Source of the DNA: Ylistrum balloti | Taxonomy: Eukaryota | Direction of reading: 5' to 3' | Assembly: GCF_031769215.1 (NCBI RefSeq) | Contig: NW_026781864.1 | Span: 806,001 to 870,000, forward strand | Length of the DNA stretch: 64,000 nt | Shown: piece after piece, positions 1-15,000 of the stretch | Layout of the letters: each line of letters starts with the position of its first letter | Numbering within the stretch: the first letter of the stretch is position 1 | Position numbers: made by a program

Positions 1-3000
1 ATTCATGTGAATATGAGTCAATCCAAGTATGTACTGTTACGTTTCCGAATTAGAACAAGTTTTAACAACAACGGAACCCCAAGGCATACTTAGAAGTGTC
101 AAACATCTAGAACATAACAAGATAACGTGTCTTTAATTCAAATTGTACGAAAATATAAGAAGGCCATCAGTAATTTGCTTCGTACATACCAACTTCATAT
201 GATATTGCTAAGATTTGTTGTTTTGTCTGCAAGTCATTTAGGGACCATGTTTATGAAGGTTTTTGATGCGTGTTAGTATGCCTGGTGGTTCCTTTGTTTT
301 TCACATTGTGTCCTTGATTATTTCTTGTTGATATTAACTATATGAGTTTAAGCCCCAAAATAATGTAGACAAAAACTGAATAAATTTAGTTCCCAATACA
401 TGCATGTAATCATAATCTAAATTCGATATACTGAATGACAAAAAGCTAGATTTATCTGGCCTTTCATGAAAAAATACAAGGACAATAAGACCGGGTGTTC
501 CGGAAGAGTAACGTCATCTGTTTTTAAGCGAGGCAAAAGAAGGAATAAATTTGCATTTGAAGAAAATGCATAAGGATTCAAAATCAAGTATTCAGTTTAA
601 ATCAGAGCATATTTCACGTTCCATCTTCATGACGAGCAAATCAGCTGATAACTCAGACCAAACCCAAAACATCAATAAGCAGCGACAAATCAAGCTGGTG
701 ATGAAATAAAATAATATCGTCATGAACTACAACAAATTTAGTTGTCAATGTGATATCGTAAGCTACAGTAGATTTGGTAGTCAATATAATGTTGATATAA
801 TCTACAATAAGTTTAGTTGTCAATATCGTGTTAACAGATTTATAACACATTCAGCTGTCGTTATAAGATAAACATATGCATGACTCATTACCGAAGAGAC
901 ATCCACAGTCAATGTAGATATAGACATATTAACATTTATGTTGCAGGATAATCGTTATTGAGTACTGATAAGAGCAGCTGATTTATAAACATAATGTTTC
1001 AAACCAAAAACCGTCTCTCTCATCTTTCAGTCTTAATGAAAATCGATTTTGGCATGACTTCCTATTCAAATCGTAACGAGAATTTCTTAAAAGTTGCCAT
1101 TTGACGTTAGTCGTCGAACATGTAACAATAGAAACATTGATCCCGTAACAACAACACGACTGCCCCACCATGTGGTAAAGTCTTTTGGCATTGAAACTTC
1201 CCTGGGATCTGAATTGTTAACTTGAATGTGAGAATCAAGTGAATTGTTTTATCCGAAACACGAAAATAACACCCAGTATAATCCTTGTTTTTTGTGTTAT
1301 GCTTTTGTGTGTGTTTTTAAAATATTGCTCTGTGTATTTTTGCTTGAAATTGGAACGTCATCGTCATCAACCCCACCCTTACATACCCAACAAAACATAA
1401 GGAAGTCAGACTGTATGAATTCCACCCAAAATGCATCATTTTTGCTCTATCATAAATAGTGTAATATTTGCTGGGAATGGATGCCTTATTAAAGTATATA
1501 TTACAGAACTCGTTCTGTTAGTGCTACAGTTACAAGCCCCTGAAGGTACGTGTAGTGGTTTTTATAAAGTAGAATGGTAGCAATATGCTATACCCTTATT
1601 TTGCATCAATTCTTAGAAGCGTCAGGCTTGAATGTCAATAATTCTAACAGAGTACTCGAGATTTTCCCCAATAACAATGCCGCCTAGATGTCTCGGCTCT
1701 GTCTGCTAAACAAATAAACGCCAGCCAGGTATTTTGTTTGAAGTGCCGACCCACAGGTAAGAAAATCAATTAGTCTAGGAGGTTATCTGATCACAATTAG
1801 CAAATTTGTATCAAATGACTGCCGATATGGACAATTATAGAAATTCTTCACTCACCCAATTCCTTTAGGACTTCATCAAAATTCTCACTTCTATCCAGTT
1901 TCCATTTTCCACCTAATTCTGCACGTATTTCCTCCAGAGCCATTTTGGAACGTTTTACAATGATCGATGTTAAGAGTTGTTAAATCCCTTTTAAGTATTT
2001 ATAACCAAACGCTCTTTTATGAAGCAGGCGATAAGGTCTCTTTTGATTTTCTGTAACTCACAGATTTGTTATAAGTTGCACGCGAGAATTGCAGACGACA
2101 GATGTCGATTTCAGAGAATTATCCCACAAGAAATATCGCGGGAACCTGCATTTACGCCAGACGACAGATTAATGTCTGAATAGTATACGTAGACGAGAAC
2201 AAACAGCAGAGTTGATATGGATCCTGTGTCGTTACAGAATTACAATAAAGTCTAGTTGACACATAGATGTAAAATTCAAATCTCGGTGTCACTTATTCTG
2301 TAATTATCTTCTGTATTGCATTGCAGCTAGCGCTTAACATTTGAACCGTAAGTATATGATTTAGTTCTCGGTTTCATATGTCAATCACAGATGAAGTAAT
2401 GTCACAGGGTGAATATGCTTATCATTCTAAATACGTTAATCCCATTGTGACAAATCATGACAAAAATCCGTACATCCGTTAATATCGTCCTGTCATTAAC
2501 TCACGTATCTGTAGATACTGATGTCAATGCCGACCTTAGTGAGACACAATATTAGCACTCCTTAAACAATTAGACAAAAGCTGGCATCATCACCAAGTAT
2601 TGTAGTAAAAGGTGATAGAACACGAACAGGTACAAATACTACAAACGCACACTTGTGTGATGCAAAACATGCGAAACAGGTACACTATTCCACAATCCCA
2701 CAGCTAATTAAATGTACTTGATATGACGTTCACATAGACCAGATTTGTACTAAAAGACTCTGTTTTCACCGGAGAGAATCTCGTAACATGTTCGCTTACA
2801 TAACGTGCACGCAATGTAACGTATCTACTGAGATTTGGGGCCGAGGAGGGGTTACATGAGGTGCTACACAATGTGTGGTGTATGTAGGTAAGACCTACTC
2901 CAAGGGACCTTATACTACAGTAATCATTCAGCTGGAAAGTTTCATGGGGAGATAGAAAATTTTAGATAGCTTTAGATATACGAAGGTCTCTTGAACAATT

Positions 3001-12000: not shown

Positions 12001-15000
12001 ATATAATTGATATGCTAACCACTGTGAGTACTCAGAAGGCTTCTGTATAATTGATATACTAATCACAGTGAGTACTCAGAGGGTTTCCATATGATTGATA
12101 TAATAATACCTGTGAGTACTCAGAGGATTCCTATATAATTGATATACTGGTCACTGTGAGTAATCTAGCTCAGAACGAAGAGTTGTCTTTATAATTGATA
12201 AACGAATCCCTGTGACTTCTCTAGCTCAGACCAGAGGTTTGTTTGTATAGTGAATATACCAGCCCTTGTTAGTACCTTATAGCTCGGAGGGTTGTGAATA
12301 CAACAAGCAAATATATCAGTCCCTGAGAGTACTCTCGCACGGATCAGAGGGTTGACGTCACAATATTTGTTATAATAATAAAACACAGTATAAAACTACC
12401 TCCCTGTGAATGTTTTTGTTATACAGCCATTGTGATGTTGGTCATACATTTAATAATAGTAAATATTTGATATTTAGGTTATGGTGTTATGGTGATCACT
12501 TCTAGCTGACCATTGTCGTACATATGTTTAACTCTAATTACGACGATAGCACGAGGTGCACGTTATCTTAACTGCTTCCGGTTGATGCTGATTCGGATAT
12601 CACGATTATTGATGACGTATGTCCGTCTAGACGTGTTGCCTTAATGACATAATACACTCCGTGGATGATCATTAACTGTTATTGACAATTTCACGTGAGG
12701 ACAGAAAGTATGATTTTATATGCTACAGATAACATAGTGAATAAGGTATTAATCGATAACATGAAATCGGACAAGTGGTCTCATTACGTTATATTTAAAT
12801 TATGTAATAGTACAAAATAATCAATTGCACTCCATGTATGTGTTGTAAAGCAGGCTCAAGTTACATAATTTTGCTTCAGGCAGTTTACAGACCAACCTAC
12901 ACACACCATATTCATATTGTTATCTCCGATATACAAATGTACTTTCGTCAATGAAATCAATTAATTAAAACAAAACACGGATTTATCAATAGGCTACCTT
13001 TTACTGCAGGTAAACTGGACTTTTAATTGTAATTATAATCAATGCACTTTTGGAAACCACACTAGGGTACATGATATATACAAAGGGTATAATACAACAC
13101 AATGTAAAACAACACGAAGAAGCATCACTCACATCGACTTCAGATCGCTTTAGAAAAACATGTCTATTTGAGATAATTGAGACAAATCAACCTCTTTATA
13201 ACGGTTCAATACCCTAATGTAAGGAACAAGCCCCGAATATCACTTGATGATGGAAGCAGCTTAGCTACTATCTAGAAATGGGAAATTCACAACTGCAATT
13301 CTGCCTTGGTAACGTTATACAATTAAAGGTTGGTGTGTGAGGCTGACGTTGAAGAGTTGGTCTTTCCTTTTCCAAACACAATATCTAATGGACAAGCTCA
13401 ATATAATTCATGTATCTAAAGACAATAATATATCTACAGGTGTAAATGAAGGTTTTAGCAAGGACTTCGTCAGGGTAACACTTTCAGGAAAAAAGGGTCG
13501 GTCAAGAGAGAGAAACATGGGTATTTAAAATTCGTATGCAAATAGCCAATTGGAAAATATTGCCACCCTATCAACGAAGATATTGACAATTTGAAATTTG
13601 ATCAATCACGAGATCTCATCTTGAACAAATTTCTTTATGAAATATTTTTGTTACTACTATTTTTATTTTACAAAGTCATATATTTTCTTCAATTACATTA
13701 AATCGTAGTACAATCATGAGTGAGTTAGTCTCTTCATACCTAACTTCTCGTTAACAAATATCCCTCTAATTGGTTTGGTAAAAAAAAGTCTTCCTTCCTA
13801 GTACAACATTGAGCTCATTAGGTGAGGCGATTTCGGATTTCACTTTGGTGTCTTAATTGAACTAAAAATAAACAAATAAATCGTTTTATTTAACAAAAGA
13901 AAGCAACATTTTAAAATAATGCAAATATATTGAAAATGAAATGATACTGAATGAAAAAAACACGAAATTAAGAAGGATAAAAATAATATTAAAAAAATGA
14001 GAGCAGTTATATGCATTTCATTAAAGAAAATAAAAAGGAACTTAAAATAGAACATTAGTATCATGAATTGGGTCCTCTTTACCTACCCAAGGTTTCCAAG
14101 AATTCGTCGAAATTTTCGCTTCGGTCCAGTGTCCACTTTCCTCCAATTTCTTGTTCAATTTCCTTTAGAACTTCTGCAGACATTGTATGATATAAATCCA
14201 ACTAACACGTTCAGCGCTTGTCAATTCAGTAAATTAAACTTAATTAATTGGTGAGATAAATGAATCAATTTGTCACAATCAATGTAGTTTTAAAGAAAAT
14301 CTTAGCACGTGTCATTCACTCTTTCCCCATACAACAAGCACTGTAGCTGTGGAAAAACCGACACAATGTCAGTGTCTAAATCATCATAAATTATACAATT
14401 AAATAACGCCGCCAGCAAACGATCTTTACAGAATAACTTTGAAAAAAAAAACTGAATGTCATATCAATATTTTATGAAAATTGTATGCAAACGTTTACTT
14501 TCAAAATACGTTCTAAACAAACACATTACAGTGAAAAGTTGTCACTTGTAGCAGAAGAATATTGATAGTATTTAAAACATGTCTATTGATCGAGGTCTAT
14601 ATCAAATGAATGGGTTGCCATGTGAGATATCCCAGCCTTTTGTCAATATTTACGATGCAGTTTGATGTATTAAGGAGGATTGCACCATTAAGTAAAAGTC
14701 CAGATACGAAATGAGTAGAAACCCTTCTTTCACATCTGTAGACATGCACAACGTTTCTGCTATACTTTTTTTACCTCTGAATTGAAGAATTCAGAAACAG
14801 AACGATATATTTGACACACAAGATTTTGATAATGAACAATGTGTCAGTATGTTATAAATTCTCAATAATGATCTCTAATTGTTTGGTGAATCGTTTGTTT
14901 ATTATTAATTTAATTTTATTTTTATTTCTTTCAAAGTTTTAAAAGAAAAACAATATGAGAAAGTCTTTATCGGTATAATGTATGTTCGGCCGTATTGATG

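What the first reader, a model, noticed from the sequence alone, without database searches (positions are those of the whole stretch)
1856..14183. Two intact FABP first exons 12 kb apart with no exons 2-4 seen between them: possible alternative N-terminal cassettes
Seen: both exons have an ATG, the GKW.LDRSENFDE motif and a phase-1 GT donor at the same codon. Across GKWxLDRSENFDE (13 codons) they differ at 7 synonymous positions and 1 amino acid, which looks like purifying selection on both. Established: FABP genes normally have 4 exons, with intron 1 at this Gly. I scanned minus-strand AG|G acceptors between 1943 and 14087 by eye and found no FABP exon 2-4. Inference: the upstream exon may splice across the second one onto shared exons left of the window, giving two promoters and two beta-A/helix-I N-termini from one gene, which would be unusual for FABPs.
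Basis: partly seen in the sequence, partly recalled or inferred. Interest (0 to 1): 0.68.

Follow-up and report, generated by a model that had tools for sequence, protein, structure and literature searches.

The report
Scallop FABP-like gene, duplicated first exon
A scallop gene for a small lipid- or retinoid-carrying protein has two intact copies of its first coding exon 12 kb apart and no other exons between them, so it most likely makes two versions of the protein's front end, an arrangement already known from other invertebrate genes of this family.

Summary
There are two minus-strand FABP/CRABP-type first exons: A at 1943..1856 and B at 14183..14087. Each has an ATG, the GKWxLDRSENFDE motif and a phase-1 GT donor at the same Gly codon.

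The window is scallop DNA, not human. Exon A is 100% identical to residues 1-30 of a 141-aa 'CRABP2-like' protein of Ylistrum balloti.

A profile of 21 orthologues, run over all 4835 six-frame ORFs, finds only the two first exons (E 3e-14 and 1e-10; next best 0.07). Exons 2-4 are therefore nowhere in the window.

Only the coding exon is alike between the two loci. Synonymous sites are saturated (pS 0.88) while pN is 0.23. Exon B keeps 11 of 12 conserved columns.

Best reading (about 0.6): these are alternative first exons spliced onto shared exons left of the window. The splice itself was not shown. The 'isoform X2' labels on three scallop orthologues fit this only loosely.

The arrangement is not unusual for invertebrate FABP genes: oyster, Tribolium and Drosophila genes use alternative exons. 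I file it as a new member of a known kind, of modest interest.

The parts
1856..1943 (-). Exon A, coding part of the proximal first exon: 29 codons plus the first base of Gly30.
   Evidence: Sequence read. 100% identical to residues 1-30 of P0001 (Ylistrum balloti CRABP2-like). Profile E 3.3e-14.
1850..1855 (-). Donor of exon A, GTGAGT, phase 1.
   Evidence: The tblastn match to P0001 ends at G30, at this point.
1996..2003 (-). TATAAATA, 60 nt upstream of the exon A ATG: candidate TATA box of the proximal promoter.
   Evidence: TATAWA occurs about once per 460 positions per strand in this window, so this is weak support only.
1..1849 (-). The start of intron 1 downstream of exon A. It holds no FABP exon, so exons 2-4 lie beyond the left edge of the window.
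   Evidence: tblastn with P0001-P0005 and the orthologue profile over ORFs of 8 aa or more find nothing here on the minus strand. The one weak hit (512-706, E 0.07) is on the plus strand.
14087..14183 (-). Exon B, coding part of the distal homologous first exon: 32 codons plus the first base of Gly33. It is 3 codons longer than A at the N-terminus.
   Evidence: Sequence read. 71% identical to P0001 residues 3-30. Profile E 1.4e-10. Matches 11 of 12 conserved columns.
14081..14086 (-). Donor of exon B, GTAGGT, phase 1, at the same codon as in exon A.
1944..14080 (-). Interval between the two exons. It would be the promoter of A plus part of intron 1 of the B transcript. It holds no FABP exon and no recognisable gene, and it is repeat-rich.
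   Evidence: Searches find no FABP hit. Pfam finds no family at E <= 0.01 on plus-strand ORFs of 62 aa or more. Minisatellites lie at 5301-6925 (42 bp x 38.7) and 11695-12162 (44 bp x 10.7). The 560-aa open frame at 5253-6935 is that 42-bp array.

Best explanation

**Proposed mechanism**
- Transcription starts upstream of either exon B (distal, 14183) or exon A (proximal, 1943).
- Each exon is spliced from its phase-1 donor to the same exon 2, which lies left of the window.
- The B transcript skips exon A, because A has a donor but no reason to be used as an acceptor.
- The result is two proteins with identical residues from about position 31 onward and different N-terminal modules.

**What the module contains.** Exon 1 encodes the extra N-terminal helix, strand beta-A and helix alpha-I.

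**How the modules differ**
- B is 3 residues longer.
- B is more acidic: 9 acidic and 3 basic residues, against 8 and 5 in A (my count from the peptides).
- B has Glu where A and mammalian CRABP2 have the alpha-I lysine of the K/R/K 'structural nuclear localisation signal'.
- The two forms may therefore differ in nuclear delivery or partner binding.

**Origin.** An old duplication, of either the exon or a whole gene whose exons 2-4 were later lost.

**Shown:** the two exons, their homology, the shared donor phase, the absence of other FABP exons in 64 kb, the selection signature, and the identity of exon A with an annotated full-length protein.

**Inferred:** that exon B is transcribed and joined to the shared exons, that it has its own promoter, and any functional difference.
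For: 1. Exon A is 100% identical to residues 1-30 of P0001 (141 aa, Ylistrum balloti). It is 90-97% identical to the N-termini of the Pecten, Argopecten and Mizuhopecten orthologues.
2. Residues 31-141 of P0001 have no match in the window. tblastn gives only the two first exons, with the next best hit at E 0.15 (I saw all rows for P0001 and part of those for P0002, because the output was cut). A profile built from 21 of the 23 stored relatives, run over 4835 ORFs, gives E 3.3e-14 and 1.4e-10, then 0.073 on the wrong strand, then 11 or more. A paralogue whose exon 1 is 71% identical should have had detectable exons 2-3.
3. DNA similarity between the loci is confined to the coding exon (1938-1845 against 14169-14076, 68% over 94 nt). 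The flanks are unrelated.
4. Over 29 aligned codons, synonymous differences are 15.2 of 17.2 sites (pS 0.88, saturated). Non-synonymous differences are 15.8 of 69.8 sites (pN 0.23), and pN is 0.12 in the last 19 codons. Fisher's test on rounded counts gives p = 1e-6.
5. Exon B keeps 11 of the 12 columns that are at least 90% conserved in 19 orthologues, but only 8 of 17 variable ones. Its changes therefore sit where the family tolerates change.
6. The three other scallop orthologues are labelled 'isoform X2'. Their 90%-identity clusters hold 2, 3 and 2 distinct sequences, each seen on one contig. So at least two near-identical protein forms per locus are annotated there.
7. Exon B keeps Phe in DEFL, the majority state. 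All four scallop A-type exons have Val. This suggests the split is older than the four scallop genera.
8. Precedent: oyster iLBP genes use duplicated exons alternatively (PMC5399370, sections 7 and 22 read). Tribolium TcFabp8X3 has an alternative first exon (preprint passages).
Against: 1. No protein or transcript with the exon B N-terminus was found. The exon B query found none at E <= 0.01 among 8 candidates.
2. In the representative library, 8 proteins scored E <= 0.001. None of the six I read was more than 69% identical. Four of the five short ones are A-type read-through fragments.
3. P0001 is a single-member cluster and carries no isoform label. The Ylistrum balloti annotation that reached this database therefore has no exon-B form.
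4. What distinguishes 'isoform X1' from 'X2' in the other scallops is unknown, because the member list could not be read. They could differ elsewhere.
5. Exon B has no TATAWA within 150 nt upstream, unlike exon A. An independent promoter is therefore not visible in the sequence.
6. Pairwise dN/dS averages over the whole history. It cannot exclude that exon B lost its partners recently.
7. The shared exons themselves lie outside the window and were not seen.
Confidence: 0.6

Rival explanations
1. Exon B is an orphan: the only surviving piece of a former tandem paralogue whose exons 2-4 were deleted. It is no longer part of any mRNA, or appears only in non-productive transcripts. It looks intact because the loss is recent, or by luck.
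For: - No exon-B protein was found in any search.
- Ylistrum balloti has a single annotated form.
- No TATA-like element lies in the 150 nt upstream of exon B.
- Whole-gene tandem copies of this family exist in bivalves. Two Mytilus californianus relatives, P0005 and P0009, are reported from contigs of the same length (115,541,503), probably the same one. The oyster paper describes pseudogenes that lack an exon (PMC5399370, section 7).
- Exon B has changed more than exon A: it matches the majority residue at 8 of 17 variable columns, against 14 of 17 for A.
Against: - Synonymous sites are saturated and the flanks have lost all similarity, so the copies are old.
- Despite that age, exon B keeps its ATG, its open frame, its same-phase GT donor and 11 of 12 conserved residues. 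A long-dead exon would not.
- The reading therefore needs the loss of exons 2-4 to be recent, which is an extra coincidence.
Confidence: 0.22
2. Exon B belongs to a second, separate gene whose own exons 2-4 also lie left of the window, beyond or interleaved with those of gene A. Two overlapping genes would then exist rather than one gene with shared exons.
For: - The window ends 1855 bp after exon A, so nothing to the left can be seen.
- Oyster CgiLBP11 and CgiLBP12 are reported to overlap each other, and CgiLBP4.1 'unites distant exons' (PMC5399370, section 7).
Against: - It requires splicing across a whole paralogous gene.
- Among 23 relatives, no second scallop protein with a B-type N-terminus and diverged exons 2-4 appeared in the full-length search. 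Such a protein would form its own cluster and should have been found by the exon B query.
Confidence: 0.1
3. Ordinary tandem paralogues, with diverged exons 2-4 of gene B lying between the two first exons. This is the refuting case the reader named.
For: This is the commonest arrangement for FABP gene clusters (established knowledge; PMC5399370, section 7, for oyster).
Against: No hit to orthologue positions 31-141 appears on the minus strand between 1944 and 14086. This holds for tblastn at E <= 100 (best 2.7, scattered and non-collinear) and for the profile. The same searches found both first exons easily.
Confidence: 0.03

Closest known systems
Oyster (Crassostrea gigas) iLBP genes CgiLBP5, CgiLBP4 and CgiLBP1A (PMC5399370; sections 5, 7 and 22 and passages of section 8 read)
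   Same: - Bivalve genes of the same family.
[quoted passage not shown]
- The authors also weigh a local exon duplication against a vestige of a whole-gene duplication.
- Many oyster iLBPs have an extra N-terminal helix, as P0001 does in the model.
   Different: - In CgiLBP5 the duplicated exon is exon 3, not exon 1.
- The text I could read does not say whether CgiLBP4 or CgiLBP1A variants use alternative first exons. The figures and supplements were not available.
- Those duplications are described as recent (about 90% identity). Here synonymous sites are saturated.
- No oyster protein appeared among the 23 relatives, so orthology is not established.
Tribolium castaneum TcFabp8 isoforms (bioRxiv 10.64898/2026.09.17.752344; passages read) and Drosophila dFabp CG6783 (PMC3029266; passage read)
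   Same: One FABP locus gives several proteins that share the beta-barrel core and differ at the N-terminus. [quoted passage not shown]
   Different: - These are insect genes, not orthologues.
- In Tribolium one difference adds a signal peptide, giving secreted and cytosolic forms. Here both exons encode homologous cytosolic-type modules.
- The passages I read do not say whether the insect first exons are duplicates of each other.
Human CRABP2, and the structural K/R/K nuclear localisation signal of CRABP2, FABP4, FABP5 and C. elegans LBP-8
   Same: - CRABP2 is the closest solved structure by sequence to the full-length orthologue P0001 (E 1e-22).
- The fold matches at TM 0.8-0.9.
- Exon A's VLKELG plus exon 2's FRK align with CRABP2's LLKELG...LRK, so the basic triad is present (PMC6620326 and PMC5399370 passages).
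   Different: - Identity is only about 36%, and the 'CRABP2-like' name comes from automatic annotation.
- The Tyr of the CRABP2 C-terminal R-x-Y is Phe in P0001 (alignment; the role of that Tyr is recalled, not tested).
- Vertebrate CRABP and FABP genes are, as far as I recall, not known for duplicated first exons.
- Exon B would give E/R/K, the pattern the oyster paper notes for FABP2-like proteins.
ReP1-NCXSQ of squid (PDB 3ppt, 3pp6)
   Same: It is a mollusc member of the family and the top structural match of the P0001 model (TMq 0.85). Some bivalve orthologues are named after it ('sodium/calcium exchanger regulatory protein 1-like').
   Different: Identity is 28-30%. Nothing about its gene structure was examined here.

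Membership tests
Intracellular lipid-binding proteins (FABP/CRABP/CRBP; Pfam PF00061) | Match to Pfam PF00061 above the curated cut-off. | tested here: inconclusive
   The full-length orthologue P0001, whose first 30 residues are exon A, scores 39.1 bits against a cut-off of 23. The 29- and 32-aa exon peptides alone match no family. They are too short, so the window's own sequence cannot pass on its own.
Intracellular lipid-binding proteins (FABP/CRABP/CRBP; Pfam PF00061) | N-terminal family signature G-x-W-x-L-x-x-S-x-N-F-[DE] (beta-A into alpha-I). The motif as a family signature is recalled from PROSITE. | tested here: met
   Both exons carry it, and they are the only 2 of 2934 six-frame ORFs that do. 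Exon B also matches solved FABPs on its own: C. elegans FABP homolog 3 at E 5e-5 and intestinal FABP at 1e-3.
Intracellular lipid-binding proteins (FABP/CRABP/CRBP; Pfam PF00061) | Ten-stranded beta-barrel capped by a helix-turn-helix. | tested here: met
   Met for P0001 only. The AlphaFold2 model has mean pLDDT 94, two cap helices (22-28 and 33-41), ten strands and an extra N-terminal helix 2-10. Foldseek gives TMq 0.79-0.89 to ReP1-NCXSQ, Drosophila FABP, LBP-8, CRABP2, FABP4 and others. It was not tested for an exon-B form, because the joined model was left out.
Intracellular lipid-binding proteins (FABP/CRABP/CRBP; Pfam PF00061) | Canonical four-exon gene with intron 1 in phase 1 at the Gly between alpha-I and alpha-II. 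| tested here: inconclusive
   The position and phase of intron 1 are met for both exons. G30 lies between helices 22-28 and 33-41 in the model. Exons 2-4 are outside the window and could not be examined.
Gene with alternative (duplicated) first coding exons | Two homologous first exons, each with its own start codon and a donor of the same phase. | tested here: met
Gene with alternative (duplicated) first coding exons | No private downstream exons for the distal first exon. | tested here: met
   No match to orthologue positions 31-141 anywhere in the window. The two first exons served as positive controls.
Gene with alternative (duplicated) first coding exons | Transcripts that join each first exon to the same second exon. 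| not testable with these tools
   - No RNA data and no eukaryotic genome collection were available.
- The shared exons lie outside the window.
- The cluster members that might be 'isoform X1' could not be listed.
- No exon-B protein was found.
Gene with alternative (duplicated) first coding exons | A separate promoter for each first exon. | tested here: inconclusive
   Exon A has TATAAATA 60 nt upstream of its ATG. Exon B has no TATAWA in the 150 nt upstream. The motif is common in this AT-rich DNA (278 in the window), and TATA-less promoters exist.
Cellular retinoic acid-binding protein (CRABP) proper | Retinoate-binding Arg/Arg/Tyr triad. The residue roles are recalled. | tested here: inconclusive
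   In the alignment, both Arg positions of CRABP2 (TRE and TRVY) align with Arg in P0001, but the Tyr aligns with Phe. These residues are encoded outside the window. The name is an automatic annotation, and the ligand is unknown.

The most novel reading that the evidence does not exclude
The two first exons are an ancient switch, conserved across scallops, that is selected by promoter choice and toggles the alpha-I lysine of the structural K/R/K nuclear localisation signal. Exon A has Lys and exon B has Glu.

One gene would then make both a nucleus-entering and a cytosol-restricted carrier with the same ligand pocket. That would be a genetically hard-wired version of what vertebrates achieve with separate FABP and CRABP paralogues.
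Probability: 0.12. Interest if true: 0.55.

Novelty: new member of a known kind. Interest (0 to 1): 0.3.

Why it matters
If exon B is used, the current annotation of this scallop gene misses one protein form. It would also be a clean natural experiment: the same ligand-binding barrel with two different N-terminal helix, beta-A and alpha-I modules.

That region forms part of the portal and contributes the first residue of the structural nuclear localisation signal. It bears on how invertebrates diversify a small lipid-carrier repertoire by re-using exons rather than whole genes.

It does not open a new class of mechanism. Duplicated alternative exons are already described in bivalve and insect genes of this family.

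Tried and rejected
1. **Pfam on single ORFs.** I scanned 231 minus-strand ORFs of 20 aa or more across 1-14300. No lipocalin/FABP hit appeared, but the two genuine first exons also scored nothing. The scan was too insensitive and I set it aside.
2. **Whole reading frame against PDB sequences.** I dropped it and used a local profile search over stop-to-stop ORFs instead.
3. **Exon B as a query.**
   - At 32 aa it was too short.
   - The 40-aa stop-to-stop frame found nothing at E <= 0.01.
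   - The representative library gave only A-type read-through fragments, one heterodont-like fragment, one 345-aa repeat protein, and two long proteins (1008 and 1590 aa) with 9 and 6 matched stretches that I did not read.
5. **Weak tblastn hit at 15628-15581.** It covers 16 aa at E 0.15 and includes 'CYSRW', upstream of exon B. I considered it as a relic of a third copy's exon 3. I rejected it because the profile search does not report it and nothing collinear surrounds it.
6. **Plus-strand hit at 512-706 (E 0.07).** It is on the wrong strand, is weak, and I take it as chance.
7. **The 560-aa open frame at 5253-6935.** It is a 42-bp minisatellite, not a gene.
8. **N-terminal comparison with other orthologues.** I asked whether exon B is the counterpart of the longer N-termini in Mactra, Dreissena and Solemya. 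Identities of 16-18 out of 31-32 do not separate B from A, so there is no conclusion.
9. **Rfam and tRNA scans of the window.** Nothing was found.
10. **Left out.** All searches were exon by exon.
11. **Not searched.**
   - Genome contigs holds only bacteria and archaea, so I did not use it.
   - Paper supplements are closed. Table S3 and Figures S1-S4 of PMC5399370 may show whether oyster variants use alternative first exons.

Full report
**1. What is in the sequence**

Two short coding exons lie on the minus strand.
- Exon A runs 1943..1856 and encodes MALEEIRAELGGKWKLDRSENFDEVLKEL. It ends with the first base of a Gly codon, followed by GTGAGT.
- Exon B runs 14183..14087 and encodes MSAEVLKEIEQEIGGKWTLDRSENFDEFLETL. 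It ends with the first base of a Gly codon, followed by GTAGGT.
- Each ATG is the first after an in-frame stop (39 nt upstream for A, 21 nt for B). Neither has another ATG in the 100 nt upstream.
- Both have A at position -3. Exon A also has G at +4.

The window has no N. Its GC content is 27-37% in 2-kb windows.

The FABP N-terminal motif occurs in exactly these 2 of 2934 six-frame ORFs of 15 aa or more.

**2. Whose gene it is**

The 43-aa frame around exon A found five proteins.
[quoted passage not shown] It is 100% identical over the 30 residues of exon A.
- Next come Pecten maximus and Argopecten irradians (97%), then Mizuhopecten yessoensis and Mytilus californianus (90%).

The window is therefore scallop DNA, from Y. 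balloti or a very close relative. It is not human.

P0001 passes Pfam PF00061 at 39.1 bits against a cut-off of 23. Its closest solved relative by sequence is human CRABP2 (E 1e-22). An AlphaFold2 model from a 20-sequence alignment has mean pLDDT 94. That model matches ReP1-NCXSQ, Drosophila FABP, C. elegans LBP-8, CRABP2 and FABP4 at TMq 0.79-0.89.

In the model, exon 1 (residues 1-30) covers three elements:
- an extra N-terminal helix (2-10);
- strand beta-A (12-20);
- helix alpha-I (22-28).

The intron falls in the loop before alpha-II (33-41).

**3. Are exons 2-4 in the window?**

They are not.
- tblastn with P0001-P0005 at E <= 100 gives 1943-1854 (100%, E 2.7e-15) and 14168-14085 (71%, E 3.9e-9). 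After that come only scattered, non-collinear hits, from E 0.15 upward. The printout was cut, so I saw all P0001 rows and part of the P0002 rows.
- I built a profile from 21 of the 23 stored relatives. P0013 and P0019 were dropped for aberrant N-termini.
- Run with all filters off over 4835 stop-to-stop ORFs of 8 aa or more, the profile gives E 3.3e-14 and 1.4e-10 for the two exons. The next hit is 0.073, on the plus strand at 512-706. The rest are 11 or more.
- The earlier Pfam scan of 231 ORFs was uninformative, because it also missed the true exons.

Two conclusions follow. The remaining 111 residues of P0001 are encoded left of the window, so intron 1 is longer than 1855 bp. And exon B has no private exons 2-4 in the 12 kb that separate it from exon A.

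That interval holds minisatellites at 5301-6925 (42 bp x 38.7, which creates a spurious 560-aa open frame) and at 11695-12162. It holds no recognisable gene.

**4. Age and selection**

DNA similarity between the two loci is limited to the coding exon, at 68% over 94 nt. Promoter and intron flanks are unrelated.

Nei-Gojobori counts over 29 aligned codons are as follows.

| Measure | Value |
|---|---|
| Synonymous differences | 15.2 of 17.2 sites (pS 0.88, saturated) |
| Non-synonymous differences | 15.8 of 69.8 sites (pN 0.23) |
| pN in the last 19 codons | 0.12 |
| Fisher's test on rounded counts | p = 1e-6 |

I compared both exons against 19 orthologues, with P0019 dropped.

| Columns | Exon B matches | Exon A matches |
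|---|---|---|
| 12 columns at least 90% conserved | 11 | 12 |
| 17 variable columns (majority residue) | 8 | 14 |

The one conserved column that B misses is Lys to Thr in W-K-L.

The A-type N-terminus (MAL[ED]EI...) is shared with gastropods (P0018, P0020), so it is the ancestral form. Exon B keeps the majority Phe in DEFL, whereas all four scallop A exons have Val. This hints that the split predates those genera, though it rests on one character and is weak.

The pattern is what one expects if exon B has been translated as part of a working protein for most of its history. Being pairwise, it cannot show that this is still so.

**5. Is exon B used, and with which exons?**

This could not be shown.

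In favour:
- The three other scallop orthologues are labelled 'isoform X2'.
- Their 90%-identity clusters hold 2, 3 and 2 distinct sequences, each from a single contig.
- An exon-B form would be about 90% or more identical to the A form, so it would hide inside such a cluster.

Against:
- I could not list the cluster members, so the difference between X1 and X2 is unknown.
- P0001 of Y. balloti is a one-member cluster without an isoform label.
- Exon B as a query found no protein at E <= 0.01 among 8 candidates.
- In the representative library, 8 proteins scored E <= 0.001, with none above 69% identity. Four of the five short ones are A-type exon-1 read-through fragments.
- Exon A has TATAAATA 60 nt upstream of its ATG. 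Exon B has no TATAWA within 150 nt.

**6. Most likely mechanism**

The likeliest reading (about 0.6) is two alternative first exons, each spliced from a phase-1 donor to a shared exon 2 left of the window. This would give proteins of 141 and about 144 aa that differ only in the N-terminal helix, beta-A and alpha-I.

Rivals:

| Reading | Confidence |
|---|---|
| Orphan remnant of a paralogue that recently lost exons 2-4 | about 0.22 |
| Second gene whose own exons also lie to the left | about 0.10 |
| Ordinary tandem paralogues with hidden exons between the two first exons | about 0.03, contradicted by section 3 |

**7. Possible functional meaning (inference)**

Aligned with a mammalian CRABP2 (P0022), exon A's VLKELG and the following FRK of P0001 match LLKELG...LRK. 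Exon B has FLETLG, with Glu in place of that Lys.

Papers describe a three-dimensional nuclear localisation signal made of one Lys on alpha-I and Arg-Lys on alpha-II. It is reported in CRABP2, FABP4, FABP5 and LBP-8 (PMC6620326 passages). The oyster paper gives K/R/K for candidates for nuclear translocation and E/R/K for FABP2-like proteins (PMC5399370 section 8 passages).

Exon B is also more acidic: 9 acidic and 3 basic residues, against 8 and 5 in A (my count from the peptides). It lacks the W-K-L lysine as well. The two forms might therefore differ in nuclear delivery or in surface interactions. Nothing here tests that.

**8. Comparison with what is known**

- The oyster iLBP paper describes a mutually exclusive duplicated exon 3 in CgiLBP5. 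[quoted passage not shown]
- A Tribolium preprint reports an alternative first exon in TcFabp8X3 (passages).
- Drosophila dFabp has at least three spliced isoforms (passage).
- My two searches for print on this exact case listed no paper on a scallop gene with duplicated first exons. They were 'fatty acid-binding protein' + 'alternative first exon' and 'scallop' + 'fatty acid-binding protein' + 'FABP' + 'exon'.

The finding is therefore a new member of a known kind, probably an unannotated isoform. It is not an unusual architecture for the family.

**9. What stayed unchecked**

- The sequence left of the window.
- Any RNA evidence.
- Other scallop genomes, since no eukaryotic genome collection was available.
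- The members of the isoform clusters.
- Paper supplements.
- The closed collections metagenome contigs and viral contigs.

Noticed in passing
window 42232-42453 (+) and 43150-43348 (+): Two exons with 4Fe-4S ferredoxin motifs (Pfam Fer4, E 3.7e-9). The second reads ...[26 protein letters not shown], which I recall as typical of complex I subunit NDUFS8 (TYKY). A plus-strand NDUFS8-like gene therefore lies about 28 kb from exon B.
   Followed up: partly
window 28869-29087 (-): An exon matching Pfam UPF0203 (E 2e-17), with cysteine spacing like the twin Cx9C proteins. It looks TRIAP1/Mdm35-like, though that name is recalled.
   Followed up: partly
window 55842-59300: A 3.5-kb satellite of a 29-bp unit, about 119 copies (58.9 copies of the 58-bp double unit). 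It gives strong AT skew and repeated spurious tblastn hits.
   Followed up: no
window 5301-6925: A 42-bp minisatellite, 38.7 copies at 94% match. Because 42 is a multiple of 3, it creates a 560-aa open frame (5253-6935, minus strand) that is not a gene.
   Followed up: yes
window 18427-19810, 22315-22953, 32373-32837, 42422-43112, 51832-52712 and others: Many further minisatellite arrays with periods of 23-91 bp. TRF reported 30 rows at score 100 or more, so the window is unusually rich in tandem repeats. The array at 42422-43112 sits between the two NDUFS8-like exons.
   Followed up: no
proteins P0026 (1008 aa) and P0027 (1590 aa), from the representative library: Two long proteins match the 32-aa exon B peptide in 9 and 6 separate stretches. 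P0033 (345 aa) holds three tandem FABP-like N-terminal modules. Multi-domain or polyprotein forms of the family therefore exist somewhere in the library. Their sources are unnamed and I did not pursue them.
   Followed up: no
window 14081-14090 (-): The exon B donor region reads TGG|GTAGGTAAAG, which holds a second possible donor (AG|GTAAAG) 4 nt downstream. Using it would shift the frame, so it could give a non-productive variant.
   Followed up: no
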